Below, one piece after another: positions 63-5,638 of a stretch of 5,638 bases of DNA. The notes under the pieces are model-generated. The model was not told the DNA's origin. It did no database searches and worked only from the letters and a program-made list of their open reading frames with translations. How positions within the stretch are numbered: the first letter of the stretch is position 1; every line of letters starts with the position of its first letter. Position numbers and translations under genes: made by a program. The stretch lies in the IMG/VR virus record IMGVR_UViG_3300029079_000073; one strand, written 5' to 3'. The stretch comes from a virus. Lineage: Duplodnaviria > Heunggongvirae > Uroviricota > Caudoviricetes.

Positions 63-282
63 CAGCTAACTCCTTCAGGTATTTTGCATCGAGTGCAGCA
101 ACATCACGCTGGCGTATCTGCATGTCAGTAATGATTGCGGTCGCCTGGTTGAGTTTTTCCTTCACATTATCGCGTTGCGCTTTGTAGGTAATGGCATTAT
201 CACGGTAATGATTAACAGCCCATGACAGGCAGACGATGATGCAGATAACCAGAGCGGAGATAATCGCGGTTACTCTGTTCAT
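1..282 (-). CDS. rzpD: Rz i-spanin (inner-membrane spanin subunit), N-terminal 94 codons; 3' end beyond the window
   Basis: Hand translation of the minus strand from ATG 282..280 gives [94 protein letters not shown] with no stop to position 1; near-identical to recalled lambda Rz. The start overlaps the R stop (ATGA, 282..279). Not in the ORF track, presumably because it runs off the window edge. Confidence 0.85.
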
Positions 283-776
283 TGCTGACCCCACAAACAG
301 ATTTCACGCTCAATCTCACGACGAGTCATGAGACCTTTCCATTGCTTACCGCCAGCATATGTCCAGCGACGTAGCTGATCACATGCGCCTTTGATATCGC
401 CCTGGTTTATTTTGCGAAGAAGCGTCGATGTTCTGAAATTGCCAGCGCCCACGTTGTAAACGAACGAGTAAAGAGCGCCGCGCGTTGTTTCCGGTATATC
501 AACTTTTATGTACGGGTTAATTTGTCTGGCGACCGTGGCAAGGTCTTTATTCAGGAGGGCTTTGCATTCTGCTTTGGTATACGTTTTACCGAGCATGATG
601 TCTTTTCCTGTATGCCCGTGACATACAGTCCATACACCAACAATATCTTTGTATGGTATGTAGCTGACACCTTCCAGACCATCGTTACCACTTGGGCCAG
701 TGATTAACACTGATGCTATAGCAATTGCTCCGCCACCAATAGCAGCAGCAACGGCTTTTCGTAATGATGGAGGCAT
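279..776 (-). CDS. rrrD: SAR endolysin (phage 21 R-type, T4-lysozyme-like muramidase)
   Basis: 165-aa ORF. N-terminus is a Gly/Ala-rich weakly hydrophobic segment ([20 protein letters not shown]) typical of a signal-arrest-release domain. Glu35, Asp44 and Thr50 are present in the E-x8-D-x5-T spacing of the lysozyme triad. SD-like GAGGTG lies upstream of ATG 776..774. The start overlaps the holin stop (TAATG). Confidence 0.93.
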
Positions 777-991
777 TATTCACCTCTCGCAGCCTTGCGC
801 TTATCTTCTTTAATCTTGAAATAAAGGTTTGTCAGGTACGTCAGCAGGCCAAATACCAGGCTACCCAGCACACCTATTGCTGCCCACTGTGAGGGCGTGA
901 CTTTATCGAGCAGCTGTAAAAACCAGTAACCGGCACTACCTGCTGAGGTGCCATAGGCGACACCCGTTGTTAACTTATCCATGGATTTCAT
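776..991 (-). CDS. essD: Class II holin / pinholin (S21-type) with dual-start motif
   Basis: ORF track gives 776..1036 (86 aa), but the internal start MKSMDKL at 991..989 is preceded by GAGGTGG and yields the 71-aa size of phage-21 S. Met1-Lys2-Ser3-Met4 is the classic antiholin/holin dual start. Two predicted TM segments ([12 protein letters not shown]; [17 protein letters not shown]) and a charged C-tail [13 protein letters not shown]. Confidence 0.88.
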
Positions 992-1239
992 AACCCCACC
1001 TCGCAGACAAAGCGGGTGTAAATTGAGGGAATACAACGTATCGCAAAAAAGCAGAAACGTAACAGACTCGGAGTCAGTGAATAACTCAGGTATTGAGTTA
1101 TCAGCTAATATCGAGACTCAAAAAATGGAAAAACCAGCTCGACGGCGGGTTTAAGCTGTGTGACGAAGTAACCACTCTTAACAGCATAACCAATTTTTTA
1201 CGTACGTAAACCACTGAATGATATTTATGAGAATGCTAC

Positions 1240-1579
1240 CGAGTGTTCAAAACACCACCACAAATATATAAGAAAACCTCAACAAATAACCAATAAATAA
1301 TTTCCGGCGTTATTTTTAGTTGATTTAAATTAAACCACCGAATTATAGAACCCCCATAAATAACAGCCATTAATATAAATTAGCTAATAGGTTTATTTTT
1401 GTTCAAATAAGAGCCATAAATAGGTTTCGATAGAAAAAGTTCAGATAAAAATAGAGATCTACTTCACAAATTAAATGAGAAACTAAAACTTACATCTTGA
1501 AATAATCACATTGATTAGATGAATATTTATCGCGCAGTGACATCATTTTTTAATAATAGTTCAAAAAAAAGGGCTCACG
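1240..1579 (+). promoter_or_regulatory. Strongly AT-rich upstream region of the porin gene (promoter / nucleoid-protein binding region); boundaries approximate
   Basis: Visibly AT-dominated sequence with A/T tracts and short direct repeats (CCATAAATA at about 1364 and 1413; ATAGGTTT at about 1387 and 1419), directly 5' of the porin start. A weak SD (AAGGG) precedes ATG 1580. No single -35/-10 pair could be assigned with confidence. Confidence 0.35.
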
Positions 1580-2662
1580 ATGAAAAAATTAACAGTGGCA
1601 ATTTCTGCTGTAGCTGCATCAGTACTGATGGCGATGTCTGCTCAGGCAGCTGAAATTTATAATAAAGACAGTAACAAGCTGGATCTGTACGGGAAAGTTA
1701 ATGCCAAGCACTACTTTTCCTCTAACGATGCAGATGATGGTGATACTACTTATGCCCGTCTTGGCTTCAAAGGTGAAACCCAAATCAACGATCAACTGAC
1801 TGGTTTCGGTCAGTGGGAATATGAATTCAAAGGCAACCGCGCTGAATCTCAAGGTTCCTCCAAAGACAAAACCCGTCTTGCATTTGCAGGCCTGAAATTC
1901 GGTGACTACGGCTCAATCGATTACGGCCGTAACTACGGTGTAGCATACGACATCGGTGCGTGGACTGACGTTCTGCCAGAATTCGGTGGCGATACCTGGA
2001 CCCAAACAGATGTGTTCATGACTGGTCGCACCACTGGTGTTGCAACCTATCGTAACAACGACTTCTTTGGTCTGGTCGATGGCCTGAACTTTGCTGCTCA
2101 GTATCAGGGTAAAAATGACCGCACTGACGTAACTGAAGCCAATGGTGATGGTTTCGGTTTCTCCACTACTTATGAGTATGAAGGATTCGGCGTGGGTGCA
2201 ACCTATGCTAAATCAGATCGCACTGACGGTCAGGTCGCCTATGGTAAGAGCAAATTCAATGCCTCCGGCAAAAATGCGGAAGTATGGGCTGCAGGCCTGA
2301 AATATGATGCGAACAATATCTATCTGGCTACCACATATTCTGAAACTCAGAATATGACCGTTTTTGGTAATAACCATATTGCAAACAAAGCACAAAACTT
2401 TGAAGCAGTAGCACAATATCAGTTTGACTTCGGTCTGCGACCATCTGTTGCTTACCTTCAGTCAAAAGGTAAAGACCTTGGTGTTCATGGTGACCGAGAC
2501 TTAGTCAAGTATGTCGATGTCGGTGCTACTTACTACTTTAATAAAAACATGTCCACTTTTGTTGATTACAAAATCAACTTAATTGACGATAGTAAGTTTA
2601 CCAAAACAGCTGGTATTGATACCGACGACATCGTCGCTGTAGGTCTGGTGTATCAGTTCTAA
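1580..2662 (+). CDS. nmpC: General diffusion porin of the OmpC/OmpF/PhoE family, NmpC/Lc (prophage-borne) type; intact
   Basis: 360-aa ORF with a signal peptide ([23 protein letters not shown], then AEIYNKD). Porin hallmarks: the conserved start of the mature protein [15 protein letters not shown], Gly/Tyr/Asp-rich beta-strand pattern, and a C-terminal Phe (VGLVYQF). Position between Q and S on the opposite strand matches nmpC in DLP12 and lc in phage PA-2. Confidence 0.92.
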
Positions 2663-2670
2663 TCTGATTA

Positions 2671-2712
2671 CGAAAAAGATATGTTGCGGGAGGCTTTGCC
2701 TCCCCAACATAT
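2671..2712 (-). terminator. Candidate intrinsic terminator for minus-strand transcripts (possible tR'-like terminator of a short late leader)
   Basis: Imperfect inverted repeat ATATGTTG(C)GGGAGGC / GCCTCCCCAACATAT at 2679..2712 with a 3-nt loop. Read on the minus strand it is followed directly by CTTTTTCG (2678..2671). Confidence 0.4.
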
Positions 2713-2800
2713 AAGTGGCTCCCTCAAGCCACTTCCTTTAGAAGCACAACCTTGCTTCTAACTATATAAACCTTCTGTTATATATTACCCTTTATTTTTG

Positions 2801-2826
2801 GGGGCGTCTCAACGCCCCATTTTTAA
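2801..2826 (+). terminator. Rho-independent terminator of the porin gene
   Basis: GC-rich stem GGGGCGT (2801..2807), loop CTCA, ACGCCCC (2812..2818), followed by ATTTTTAATAATTTTT. Lies about 140 nt after the porin stop. Two further short perfect hairpins sit between (AAGTGGCT/AGCCACTT at 2713..2734; GAAGCA/TGCTTC at 2741..2758). Confidence 0.6.
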
Positions 2827-2851
2827 TAATTTTTAGTAAACAATTGGCATA

Positions 2852-3067
2852 TTAATTAGAGTTATTAACAACGATATCCATCTCTAACCGGATATCTAAT
2901 GCCATTAACATCCCTTCAATTATGCCCTCAGCCTTCTGTAACCTTTTCCCGATATAACCATCAGAGCAGCAATGCTTACCTGCCAGTGACATGAATGTCA
3001 TACCGACTACATAATAATCTACTAATAAATCGTGCAAATCGCTGTTGTTCTTTTTCAGACGGGCCAT
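2852..3067 (-). pseudogene. quuD: Late antiterminator Q (QuuD / Q21-family) remnant: C-terminal 71 codons only, 5'-truncated
   Basis: 71-aa ORF ([71 protein letters not shown]) matches the C-terminal half of the ~127-aa DLP12 QuuD as I recall it. An in-frame TGA lies 10 codons upstream (3097..3095) and the intervening codons (LPRCEDACY) are rusA sequence read in another frame. No SD before ATG 3067. Confidence 0.7.
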
Positions 3068-3381
3068 GTAACAGGCATCTTCACAACGCGGTAATCAACG
3101 ACCAGCTCATCATCCAGCCAGAAACCTGCTTTAGTGAGTGCGTCAAAAGCGGCTTTTTGCAGATTATCCAGGTCACGGCGACGGCGATCCGGCATGTGGC
3201 ACTCAATGCGGATTTTCACAGGCATAGCCAGGCCGATATCCAGCATTGCGTTTTTAATGATTCGGGCGACGTTATCGCGGTATGCCTGCCCCTCTGCGCT
3301 GACGTGCGTGCGCCCGCGATTATGGCGGTAATAGCGATTATTGCTCGGAGGCCAGGGTAATGTGATGCTGTAGGTATTCAC
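3055..3381 (-). CDS. rusA: Holliday-junction resolvase RusA (108 aa; C-terminus differs from the canonical 120-aa protein)
   Basis: Translation [91 protein letters not shown]... matches recalled E. coli RusA through about residue 105, then ends WPV-stop. GTG start at 3381..3379 overlaps the ybcO stop (GTGA). Confidence 0.9.
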
Positions 3382-3668
3382 GCCTTAATAACCCCCTCTT
3401 TCAGCCAGATAACCTGTGTTCTCGCCATACCTTCCAGCGCGCATTCTTTTGCATATGCAGCATCGACAAAATGTGTGCGGCGGTCGATTTCGTCGTGGCA
3501 GGCAGAACATGCAATGGTGGCAATCAGGTCTGGCGGTTTGGTACCGGTGCCGCACAATCCAGTCAGCCGGATATGTGCCAGTACAGACGTTTCAGGGTTG
3601 CCATTACATACGCCAGGGATTCTTACCTGGCATTCCCGACCACGCGCTGCTTTTCTCAAATCAGCCAT
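3378..3668 (-). CDS. ybcO: YbcO-like prophage protein (Cys-rich, putative zinc-binding nuclease; DUF1364-type)
   Basis: ORF track gives 3378..3707 (109 aa). The internal start [23 protein letters not shown]... at 3668..3666 is preceded by AAGGAGG with a 5-nt spacer and gives the 96-aa size I recall for DLP12 YbcO. Contains C-x7-C and C-x2-C motifs. Overlaps the stop of the upstream P/NinE ORF by 8 nt. Confidence 0.85.
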
Positions 3669-4371
3669 GATTCCTCCTTGCTGCCAGTCGCAACCATTTT
3701 TTATCAACCAGGCTGGCGGTATATCCGAGCAGTGTTGGTATTTCGGATGGTTTCAGCTCAGGCTTACGCTTACGACGATTTGGTACTCTGTAGATGTGTC
3801 CGTTCATGACACGAATACCGCCCATAACAGGAAGTTGTTTTACTGGTTCAGGTATCGTCTCACCACGGTTAATTCGCGCTGTCATACAGGTCAGTTCATC
3901 GGCAGCCTTGCGCCGTAATTCCGCGTCAGTCAGCGCATTGGCCCGCATGTTCTGGTACAAGTTGGTAACCAACCAGTAATGCGCGTTCGATTTCCACGGA
4001 TAAGACTCTGCATCCGGATACAGGCCACGCTTCCGGCAATACTCGTAAACCATATCAACCAGCTCGCTGACGTTTGGCAGCCCGGCGTTAACAGATGCTT
4101 CTTCCCGGCACCAGGCGACAAACTGCCCGGGTGATGGCAGGAATGGTCGATTCTGCCGACGGGCTACGCGCATTCCAGCGTTAACCTGTTCCATTGTGGT
4201 GATCCCGTTTTCCCGGAAAGCCAGAACCCACTGGCGGCGGATTTCGTTCAGTTCATTCTGGTCACGGTTAGCCAGGCTCGCCGGGAAAGTTGCCAGTAAC
4301 TGGCTGAACACACCGTTGATGATCTGCGCTACCTGCTGTACAGGCAACACGTAAAGATCCAACCAAGCCAA
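3661..4371 (-). CDS. Chimeric ORF: replication protein P (lambda P-like, lacking both termini) fused in frame to NinE; probably a deletion product
   Basis: Residues 11 to about 185 (VQQVAQIINGVFSQLLATFPASLANRDQNE...EPVKQLPVMGG) are near-identical to recalled lambda P residues about 33..207. The C-terminal about 50 residues ([51 protein letters not shown]) resemble NinE. The first 10 codons (TTG start at 4371, then AWLDLYVLP) are unrelated to P; SD AAGGAG sits only 3 nt before the TTG. Confidence 0.75.
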   Translation of the reverse strand: MAWLDLYVLPVQQVAQIINGVFSQLLATFPASLANRDQNELNEIRRQWVLAFRENGITTMEQVNAGMRVARRQNRPFLPSPGQFVAWCREEASVNAGLPNVSELVDMVYEYCRKRGLYPDAESYPWKSNAHYWLVTNLYQNMRANALTDAELRRKAADELTCMTARINRGETIPEPVKQLPVMGGIRVMNGHIYRVPNRRKRKPELKPSEIPTLLGYTASLVDKKWLRLAARRNHG

Positions 4372-4404
4372 AATCTCCTTACCTCACAACACGGCAAGCC
4401 TGCA

Positions 4405-4433
4405 TTGCGGCGCTTCAGTCTCCGCTGCATACT
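4405..4433 (+). promoter_or_regulatory. Weak sigma70-like promoter candidate for the integrase gene
   Basis: TTGCGG (4405..4410), 17-nt spacer, CATACT (4428..4433), about 40 nt upstream of the int ATG; SD-like GAGGAAAG at 4464..4471. Hexamer matches are weak (3/6 and 4/6 to consensus). Confidence 0.2.
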
Positions 4434-4474
4434 GTCCAGGTGAGCGCGGGTGATGGCATAACAGAGGAAAGAAA

Positions 4475-5638
4475 ATGTCACTCTTCCGCAGAAATGAAAT
4501 ATGGTATGCCTCGTATTCGCTCCCGGGCGGGAAACGAATTAAGGAATCTCTTGGCACAAAGGACAAGCGGCAAGCTCAGGAGTTGCACGACAAGCGAAAA
4601 GCAGAACTCTGGCGAGTAGAAAAGCTAGGGGATTTACCTGATGTCACTTTTGAAGAGGCCTGCCTAAGATGGCTTGAGGAAAAAGCTGATAAAAAATCTC
4701 TCGATTCAGATAAAAGCCGGATTGAGTTCTGGCTTGAACATTTTGAGGGTATAAGGCTTAAAGATATCTCGGAGGCAAAGATTTACTCTGCTGTAAGCAG
4801 AATGCATAACAGAAAGACGAAAGAAATATGGAAACAGAAAGTTCAGGCCGCCATCAGGAAAGGTAAAGAACCGCCTGTTTATGAACCAAAGCCAGTATCA
4901 ACTCAGACAAAGGCAAAGCATCTTGCCATGATAAAGGCCATTCTCCGTGCTGCAGAACGCGACTGGAAGTGGCTGGAAAAAGCGCCTGTCATCAAGATAC
5001 CAGCGGTCAGAAACAAGCGAGTCAGATGGCTGGAAAAGGAGGAAGCAAAACGCCTTATTGATGAGTGCCCCGAACCACTGAAATCTGTCGTCAAGTTTGC
5101 GCTGGCAACTGGTCTGAGAAAGTCGAACATCATAAATCTGGAATGGCAACAAATCGACATGCAGCGACGAGTTGCCTGGGTGAATCCAGAAGAGAGCAAA
5201 TCAAACCGCGCCATTGGTGTGGCGCTGAACGATACCGCCTGTAAAGTGTTGCGTGATCAAATAGGCAAGCATCACAAATGGGTGTTTGTACATACCAAGG
5301 CGGCTAAGCGAGCAGATGGAACATCAACGCCTGCGGTCAGGAAGATGCGCATCGACAGCAAGACATCATGGCTATCAGCTTGTCGTCGTGCAGGAATTGA
5401 AGATTTCCGTTTCCATGACCTCAGACACACCTGGGCAAGCTGGCTGATTCAGTCAGGCGTCCCATTATCAGTGCTTCAGGAAATGGGCGGATGGGAGTCC
5501 ATAGAAATGGTTCGTAGGTATGCTCACCTTGCGCCTAATCATTTGACAGAGCATGCGAGGAAAATAGACGACATTTTTGGTGATAATGTCCCAAATATGT
5601 CCCACTCTGGAATTATGGAGGATATAAAGAAGGCGTAA
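4475..5638 (+). CDS. intD: Tyrosine recombinase / phage integrase (DLP12 IntD, P21-family)
   Basis: 387-aa ORF with N-terminal arm-binding-like region and a C-terminal catalytic domain carrying tyrosine-recombinase signatures (ATGLRKSN box I region; [10 protein letters not shown] and VRRYAHL with the catalytic Tyr). Matches my recollection of E. coli IntD. SD GAGGAAAG precedes the ATG. The stop is the last codon of the window. Confidence 0.95.

What the first reader, a model, noticed from the sequence alone, without database searches (positions are those of the whole stretch)
3661..3850. In-frame P::NinE fusion consistent with a nin-region deletion
The ORF switches from lambda-P-like sequence (...EPVKQLPVMGG) straight into NinE-like sequence (IRVMNGHIYRVPNRRKRKPELKPSEIPTLL...), so the C-terminal about 26 residues of P, ren and the proximal nin genes are missing. 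The nin region is classically deletable in lambda, but an in-frame fusion that keeps the downstream ybcO and rusA translational couplings (8-nt and 4-nt overlaps) is notable. It may preserve expression of the downstream retained genes.
Basis: partly seen in the sequence, partly recalled or inferred. Interest (0 to 1): 0.5.

Follow-up and report, generated by a model that had tools for sequence, protein, structure and literature searches.

The report
Deletion scar in DLP12 cryptic prophage
The P::NinE fusion is real, but it is an accidental in-frame scar left by a 4.6-kb deletion inside the well-known, already decaying DLP12 cryptic prophage of E. coli, and nothing indicates that it is expressed or selected.

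Summary
The 236-codon minus-strand ORF (3661-4371) runs from lambda P residues 33-207 directly into DLP12 NinE residues 6-56. The junction lies at window 3816/3817.

The window is the DLP12 cryptic prophage at tRNA argU. Compared with E. coli strain D2, whose flanks are 100% and 99.8% identical, 4,617 bp are missing. They hold the last 26 P codons, ren, emrE, ylcJ, ybcK, two hypothetical genes, a ylcH-like ORF, ybcN, and the ribosome-binding site and first five codons of ninE. The breakpoints share only 2 nt (TA), with no flanking repeat and no IS, so this is illegitimate recombination.

The expression-preserving reading is not supported:
- The 8-nt and 4-nt overlaps are identical in intact DLP12.
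- P' also lacks its first 32 codons and its start codon.
- No promoter-like site lies upstream.
- ybcO has its own strong ribosome-binding site.
- rusA in DLP12 is reported as normally silent.
- A second 439-bp deletion truncates rusA and quuD.

Both junctions occur only in the same 6 of 5,426 complete E. coli genomes, apparently one lineage. RefSeq already annotates P there as a partial pseudogene. This is ordinary prophage decay, of low interest.

The parts
3661..4371 (-). Mechanical 236-codon ORF (TTG to TGA): the P'::NinE' chimera
   Evidence: ORF list. (alignment to lambda P and DLP12 NinE).
3817..4341 (-). P' fragment, equal to lambda P residues 33-207. Domain I (N-terminal lasso) is absent and most of domain IV (C-terminal lasso) is missing.
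   Evidence: RefSeq annotates the same span as 'replication protein P, incomplete, missing N-terminus and C-terminus'. Domain limits are from PMC12661323.
3816..3817 (.). Junction A: 2-nt microhomology (TA on the coding strand) where P codon 207/208 is joined to ninE codon 5/6. 4,617 bp are missing relative to strain D2.
   Evidence: No flanking direct repeat above shuffled background.
3661..3816 (-). ninE' : codons 6-56 plus the stop codon of DLP12 ninE. The native ribosome-binding site (AGGAGG) and ATG are deleted.
   Evidence: RefSeq calls a 54-aa 'NinE family protein' from the P-derived ATG at 3825, which has no ribosome-binding site upstream (sequence).
4342..4379 (.). Non-P sequence native to the int/xis-proximal end of DLP12-like prophages. 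It supplies the ORF's first 10 codons and a fortuitous AAGGAG 3 nt before the TTG.
   Evidence: alignment with K-12, D2 and lambda; this stretch is present in 1,248 genomes, but joined to P in only 7.
3378..3668 (-). ybcO (DUF1364, putative nuclease), intact. It has its own ribosome-binding site (AAGGAGG) and overlaps the ninE stop by 8 nt.
   Evidence: The overlap is the same in K-12 and D2.
3055..3381 (-). rusA' : residues 1-105 of the 120, followed by W-P-V and a stop. It overlaps ybcO by 4 nt (GTGA).
   Evidence: PDB 1q8r aligns over residues 1-105 only.
3068..3068 (.). Junction B: a 439-bp deletion (rusA codons 106-120, ylcG, quuD codons 1-56) with a 1-nt overlap.
   Evidence: Present only in the same 6 genomes as junction A.
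2852..3067 (-). quuD' : the C-terminal 71 of 127 codons of the Q-type antiterminator (pseudogene).
4475..5638 (+). intD integrase, divergent from the fusion ORF. tRNA argU lies just beyond the window end.

Best explanation
The window is the left half of the DLP12 cryptic prophage, integrated at tRNA argU in E. coli, in a rare and heavily eroded form. A single illegitimate-recombination deletion of about 4.6 kb, with 2 nt of microhomology, joined codon 207 of an already 5'-truncated P gene to codon 6 of ninE. By chance (1 in 3) the two frames agree, so a 236-codon chimeric ORF results.

The ORF is a pseudogene remnant, for these reasons:
- It has no native start codon and no recognisable promoter.
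- It lacks both DnaB-gripping 'lasso' elements of P, and there is no O gene or origin next to it.
- The deletion removed ninE's own ribosome-binding site and ATG.

The ninE/ybcO and ybcO/rusA overlaps are simply the ancestral gene arrangement downstream of the breakpoint.

Shown here: the junction, the size and content of the deletion, its rarity, the second deletion, and the absence of consensus promoters. Inferred: that the ORF is not expressed, and that it is not under selection.
For: **Locus identity**
- Searches give the gene order argU-intD-P'-ninE-ybcO-rusA-quuD-porin-essD-rrrD, between fimZ and cusS.

**Junction and deletion**
- window 3068-3817 matches D2 12908-13657 at 100%. Window 3816-4343 matches D2 18273-18801 at 99.8%. 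The offset difference is 4,617 bp and the overlap is 2 nt.
- One search gives the protein-level junction: P 33-207 followed by NinE 6-56.
- no direct repeat around the breakpoints (score 7.5, shuffle mean 7.9). Microhomology of at least 2 nt is expected at 16% of random joins.

**Distribution**
- junction A occurs in 6 of 5,426 genomes.
- junction B occurs in the same 6.
- three of them, from China, the UK and South Africa, are 99.96-99.98% identical over 13.9 kb including the chromosomal flanks.
- no phage record holds P-NinE collinearly.
- strain SW071614 shares the same 5' truncation of P but keeps the intact P C-terminus and intact ninE, rusA, ylcG and quuD. That is a pre-deletion state.

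**Expression and function**
- no sigma-70-like site on the minus strand between 3382 and 5638, that is, within or upstream of the fusion ORF.
- (PMC12661323): lambda P domain I is residues 1-29 and domain IV (the C-terminal lasso) is residues 193-233. The C-terminal lasso is probably the first element to bind DnaB stably.
- (PMC1636454, PMC4118853): rusA in DLP12 is normally quiescent and needs an IS-borne promoter.
- RusA is cut at residue 105 of 120, and QuuD lacks 56 N-terminal residues.
Against: - An AAGGAG lies 3 nt upstream of the TTG at 4371, and the ORF is uninterrupted for 236 codons, so translation is not excluded if a transcript exists.
- The strong argU promoter points the same way about 1.3 kb upstream, and read-through was not tested.
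- The consensus promoter scan is crude.
- No expression data are available.
- With identical sequences in all carriers, selection cannot be measured.
Confidence: 0.9

Rival explanations
1. The in-frame fusion is functional or selected. Ribosomes translating P'::NinE' reach the ATGGCTGA overlap and so maintain translationally coupled expression of ybcO and rusA.
For: - The ORF is open for 236 codons.
- The 8-nt and 4-nt overlaps are intact.
- An AAGGAG lies near the TTG start.
- The argU promoter is co-oriented about 1.3 kb upstream.
Against: - The overlaps are ancestral and identical in undeleted DLP12.
- ybcO has its own AAGGAGG ribosome-binding site.
- rusA is truncated at residue 105 and quuD is a pseudogene, so the 'retained' genes are themselves decaying.
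- No promoter-like site was found.
- rusA in DLP12 is reported as silent without an IS promoter (PMC1636454, PMC4118853).
- An in-frame result is a 1 in 3 chance.
- The junction occurs in only one lineage, 6 of 5,426 genomes.
Confidence: 0.04
2. The deletion is real but was made by a dedicated enzyme rather than by illegitimate recombination. One candidate is the serine recombinase YbcK, encoded inside the lost segment and acting on pseudo-sites with a 2-bp crossover. Another is an IS-mediated adjacent deletion.
For: - ybcK (recombinase family) lies inside the deleted interval in D2 and K-12.
- The 2-nt overlap equals the crossover size of serine recombinases (established knowledge).
- K-12 carries IS3 in renD.
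Against: - The two breakpoint regions share no similarity beyond 2 nt.
- No IS or IS end is left at the junction.
- The endpoints lie inside ordinary phage coding sequence, not at the borders of an inserted element.
- A 2-nt overlap is within chance expectation.
- The neighbouring 439-bp deletion has the same featureless character, with a 1-nt overlap.
Confidence: 0.05
3. The C-terminal 51 residues are a normal part of some P-family protein, or the junction is an assembly artefact.
For: None found.
Against: - The tail is 51/51 identical to D2 NinE residues 6-56.
- The two halves lie 4.6 kb apart in D2 and 6.3 kb apart in K-12.
- 0 of 158 matching phage records hold the ORF collinearly.
- The identical junction is present in six independently sequenced complete genomes from different countries.
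Confidence: 0.01

Closest known systems
DLP12 cryptic prophage of E. coli K-12 (argU; intD ... ninE-ybcO-rusA-ylcG-quuD-nmpC-essD-rrrD)
   Same: - Same integration site and same gene order.
- 98-99.8% DNA identity over int, P', ninE-rusA and quuD.
- Same 8-nt and 4-nt gene overlaps.
- P is a pseudogene fragment in K-12 as well (peaD).
   Different: - K-12 keeps ren (split by IS3), emrE, ybcK, ybcL, ybcM, ylcH, ybcN, complete ninE, complete rusA, ylcG and complete quuD.
- Its P fragment (peaD) starts further downstream in P and keeps the C-terminus.
- Its nmpC is split by IS5, whereas the porin gene here is intact.
Lambda replication protein P (helicase loader; PDB 8v9t, 6bbm)
   Same: Residues 33-207 are about 97% identical. 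The full Pfam PF06992 profile is matched.
   Different: - It lacks domain I (residues 1-29) and residues 208-233 of domain IV. These are the N- and C-terminal lassos that grip DnaB (PMC12661323).
- No O gene or origin lies next to it.
- It carries a NinE tail.
Lambda nin5-type deletions (nin region dispensable; from my own knowledge, about 2.8 kb between ren and Q)
   Same: A deletion that removes DNA between the replication genes and the Q-proximal nin genes.
   Different: - The endpoints lie inside P and inside ninE.
- Most of the lost DNA is DLP12 cargo (emrE, ybcK and others) rather than ninB-ninD.
- It occurs in a defective prophage, where phage viability imposes no constraint.
Deletional decay of cryptic prophages (pseudogene fusions from microhomology-mediated deletions)
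   Same: - 1-2-nt microhomology at the junctions.
- Multiple independent deletions at the same locus in different lineages: K-12, D2, SW071614 and this one.
   Different: Nothing of note. This is a typical instance that happens to be in frame.

Membership tests
Lambda P replication protein / helicase loader (PF06992) | Sequence match to the family profile | tested here: met
   208 bits, profile positions 1-162 of 162; 170 of 175 residues identical to lambda P 33-207.
Lambda P replication protein / helicase loader (PF06992) | [quoted passage not shown] | tested here: not met
   only residues 33-207 are present. Domain limits are from PMC12661323.
Lambda P replication protein / helicase loader (PF06992) | Own start codon, and a partner O gene and origin immediately upstream | tested here: not met
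   upstream lie 38 nt of int/xis-proximal DNA and then the divergent intD. There is no O gene.
NinE (PF05322) | Sequence match to NinE | tested here: inconclusive
   - The Pfam score is 20.5 bits, below the 25-bit gathering cutoff.
- Residues 186-236 are 51/51 identical to D2 NinE 6-56, so the descent is certain.
NinE (PF05322) | Free-standing small gene with its own ribosome-binding site and ATG | tested here: not met
   the AGGAGG site and the ATG plus codons 2-5 fall within the deletion.
DLP12 cryptic prophage | Integration at tRNA argU between fimZ and the cus operon, with the int ... ninE-ybcO-rusA-quuD-porin-essD-rrrD order | tested here: met
   -.
- The window is 100% identical from position 197 to the end with six genomes that have this context.
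Lambda nin5-like deletion | A deletion confined to the nin region (between ren and Q) of a viable phage, giving N-independence | tested here: not met
   the endpoints lie in P codon 207/208 and ninE codon 5/6. The element is a defective prophage without N, cI, O or structural genes in the window.
Translationally coupled gene string | Overlapping stop and start codons | tested here: met
   ATGGCTGA at 3668-3661 and GTGA at 3381-3378. The same overlaps occur in K-12 and D2.
Translationally coupled gene string | Downstream translation depends on upstream translation | not testable with these tools
   This needs reporter fusions. ybcO has a strong ribosome-binding site of its own (AAGGAGG), which argues against dependence.

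The most novel reading that the evidence does not exclude
The two deletions have brought ybcO (intact) and rusA' to within about 1.3-2 kb of the strong, co-oriented argU promoter. The in-frame P'::NinE' ORF could then let read-through transcripts be translated continuously up to the ybcO start. That would give this globally spread lineage constitutive expression of the putative nuclease YbcO, or of a 27-kDa P-NinE chimera that still contains the globular domains II and III of the helicase loader.
Probability: 0.03. Interest if true: 0.3.

Novelty: already known. Interest (0 to 1): 0.08.

Why it matters
It matters little. It documents one more step in the erosion of DLP12, with two small practical points:
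- This lineage has lost emrE (a multidrug/quaternary-cation efflux gene), ybcK and ybcN, and has truncated rusA and quuD. Phenotypes attributed to DLP12 genes in K-12 therefore cannot be assumed for these strains.
- Annotation pipelines call a 54-aa 'NinE family protein' starting at a methionine that actually belongs to P, with no ribosome-binding site. That call is probably spurious.

Tried and rejected
- **Junction in other collections.** An exact 39-nt junction pattern was searched in metagenome contigs and in GTDB species-representative genomes. Both gave 0 hits, so there is no evidence of the junction outside the one E. coli lineage.
- **First count of junction B.** A 120-nt query for junction B was uninformative, because the tool merges pieces less than 560 bp apart. 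It was repeated with a 41-nt query.
- **Breakpoint repeats.** I looked for direct repeats or extended homology at the breakpoints. There is none at junction A. An 18-nt imperfect repeat near junction B is out of register with the breakpoint.
- **Promoters.** A sigma-70 consensus scan on the minus strand between 3382 and 5638, covering the fusion ORF and everything upstream of it, found nothing.
- **YbcK or IS-mediated deletion.** Considered and set aside, because no site similarity and no IS remnant are present.
- **Large protein-database searches.** Not run.

Full report
**What the window is**

The ORF list and Pfam scans give this layout:

| Window coordinates | Strand | Gene |
|---|---|---|
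| 4475-5638 | + | tyrosine integrase |
| 3661-4371 | - | P-like ORF |
| 3378-3668 | - | ybcO |
| 3055-3381 | - | rusA |
| 2852-3067 | - | Q-antiterminator fragment |
| 1580-2662 | + | OmpC-like porin |
| 776-1036 (mechanical ORF; 776-991 by the RefSeq essD call) | - | holin |
| 279-776 | - | lysozyme |

Megablast against 5,426 complete E. coli genomes and the RefSeq annotation of the hits identify this as the DLP12 cryptic prophage. It is integrated at tRNA argU, between fimZ and the cus operon. From position 197 to 5638 the window is 100% identical to six genomes. The only differences are 26 positions in 63-196.

**Checking the observation**

- The 236-aa translation aligns to lambda P residues 33-207 over its residues 11-185 (170 of 175 identical).
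- It aligns to DLP12 NinE residues 6-56 over its residues 186-236 (51/51 with strain D2, 50/51 with K-12).
- At the DNA level, window 3068-3817 equals D2 locus positions 12908-13657 (100%). Window 3816-4343 equals D2 18273-18801 (99.8%).
- The two offsets differ by 4,617 bp, and the matches overlap by 2 nt, at window 3816-3817.
- On the coding strand, P reads ...ATG GGC GGT A|GA CCT and ninE reads ATG GCT ACA CCG CTT A|TT CGT. The window reads ...ATG GGC GGT ATT CGT.

The observation and its coordinates are correct.

**What was lost**

In D2, the closest undeleted relative, the missing interval holds:
- the last 26 codons of P
- ren
- emrE
- ylcJ
- the recombinase gene ybcK
- a P22AR-C-domain gene
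- a hypothetical gene
- a ylcH-like ORF
- ybcN, the Orf/NinB analogue (PMC4118853)
- the ribosome-binding site (AGGAGG), the ATG and codons 2-5 of ninE

So this is not the classical lambda nin deletion. It is a deletion of ren, mostly cargo genes and ybcN in a defective prophage.

**How the deletion arose**

- The breakpoints share only TA.
- No direct repeat lies within 100 bp either side (score 7.5, against a shuffled mean of 7.9).
- A microhomology of at least 2 nt is expected at about 16% of random joins.
- No IS end is present.

This is the signature of illegitimate (microhomology or end-joining type) recombination. The in-frame outcome has a prior of 1 in 3.

**Distribution**

- A 120-nt probe across junction A is contiguous in only 6 of 5,426 genomes. 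About 3,400 other genomes match one half or both halves separately.
- No phage record among 50,697 holds the ORF collinearly. The P homology stops exactly at the junction.
- The exact junction is absent from the metagenome and species-representative collections.
- Three carriers were compared: swine from China, human blood from the UK, and chicken from South Africa. They are 99.96-99.98% identical over 13.9 kb including the chromosomal flanks. This indicates a single origin in one lineage.

**The rest of the locus is also eroded**

- *The 5' end of P.* P homology starts at codon 33 (window 4341). The preceding 38 nt are native int/xis-proximal DNA found in 1,248 genomes, but joined to P in only 7. 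One of the seven, SW071614, keeps the intact P C-terminus, ninE, rusA, ylcG and quuD, and shows the pre-deletion state. The TTG 'start' of the 236-aa ORF is therefore mechanical.
- *A second deletion.* A 439-bp deletion at window 3068 (1-nt overlap) removes rusA codons 106-120, ylcG and quuD codons 1-56. RusA becomes residues 1-105 plus WPV. The solved structure 1q8r aligns over residues 1-105 only, and the Pfam match stops at profile position 111 of 124. Junction B is found in exactly the same six genomes.

**Does the fusion 'preserve expression'?**

Nothing supports this.
- The 8-nt (ATGGCTGA) and 4-nt (GTGA) overlaps are real, but they are identical in K-12 and D2 and lie downstream of the breakpoint. 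Any deletion ending in ninE would have kept them.
- ybcO has its own AAGGAGG ribosome-binding site.
- The consensus scans find no sigma-70-like site on the minus strand between 3382 and 5638, which covers the fusion ORF and everything upstream of it.
- The literature states that rusA in DLP12 is normally quiescent and is activated only by IS2 or IS10 insertions that supply a promoter (PMC1636454). It also states that promoter-supplying insertions are needed for adequate expression of this operon (PMC4118853).
- As a protein, the chimera lacks lambda P domain I (residues 1-29) and most of domain IV (193-233). These are the two lassos that grip DnaB, and the C-terminal one is probably the first to bind stably (PMC12661323). 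There is also no O gene or origin.
- RefSeq already annotates the P part as a partial pseudogene. It calls a 54-aa NinE from the P-derived ATG at 3825, which has no ribosome-binding site.

**Residual uncertainty**

- The strong argU promoter (TTGACT-16-TATAAT) points the same way about 1.3 kb upstream. Only two terminator-like hairpins lie in between.
- A fortuitous AAGGAG sits 3 nt before the TTG.
- Read-through expression is therefore not excluded, but it is untested. I give it a few percent.

**Verdict**

The 'deletion fusion' reading is correct. The 'nin-region deletion that preserves expression' reading is not supported. This is ordinary deletional decay of a well-known cryptic prophage, and of low interest.

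Noticed in passing
window 3068 (rusA'/quuD' junction; 2852-3381): A second deletion of 439 bp, with a 1-nt overlap, removes rusA codons 106-120, ylcG and quuD codons 1-56. RusA' ends ...PVT-WPV*. It is found only in the same six genomes as the P::ninE junction.
   Followed up: yes
window 4338-4380: P is also truncated at its 5' end (codons 1-32 lost) and joined to int/xis-proximal DNA. This junction is shared by 7 genomes, including SW071614, which lacks the other two deletions. Strain D2 has a different int deletion whose endpoint falls at the same spot (window 4343). That coincidence is unexplained.
   Followed up: partly
window 63-196 (rzpD 3' part): There are 26 differences in 134 bp relative to the six otherwise identical genomes. 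This looks like a short recombination patch or an alternative rzpD/rzoD allele. No fetched locus matches the patch better than 91%.
   Followed up: partly
window 1580-2662: The DLP12 porin gene (nmpC, annotated ompC) is intact at 360 aa. The K-12 copy is split by IS5. A terminator-like hairpin follows at 2801-2818.
   Followed up: no
L005 6851-8484, compared with L002 14320-18196: The interval between P and ybcN is a variable cargo slot in DLP12-like prophages. D2 and K-12 carry ren-emrE-ylcJ-ybcK there. SW071614 carries a phosphoribosyltransferase-like gene plus a NADAR gene, a possible defence-type pair.
   Followed up: no
L001 9163-9190 (just outside the window, beyond 5638): The argU promoter (11 of 12 match to consensus) is co-oriented with the P'::ninE'-ybcO-rusA' string. 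Transcripts would run antisense through intD. The only terminator-like hairpins on that strand are at window 5225-5208 and 4927-4912.
   Followed up: partly
window 3823-3825: RefSeq annotates a 54-aa 'NinE family protein' (WP_175077970.1) that starts at an ATG belonging to P (Met205 of lambda P). No ribosome-binding site precedes it, so this is probably an annotation artefact of the fusion.
   Followed up: yes
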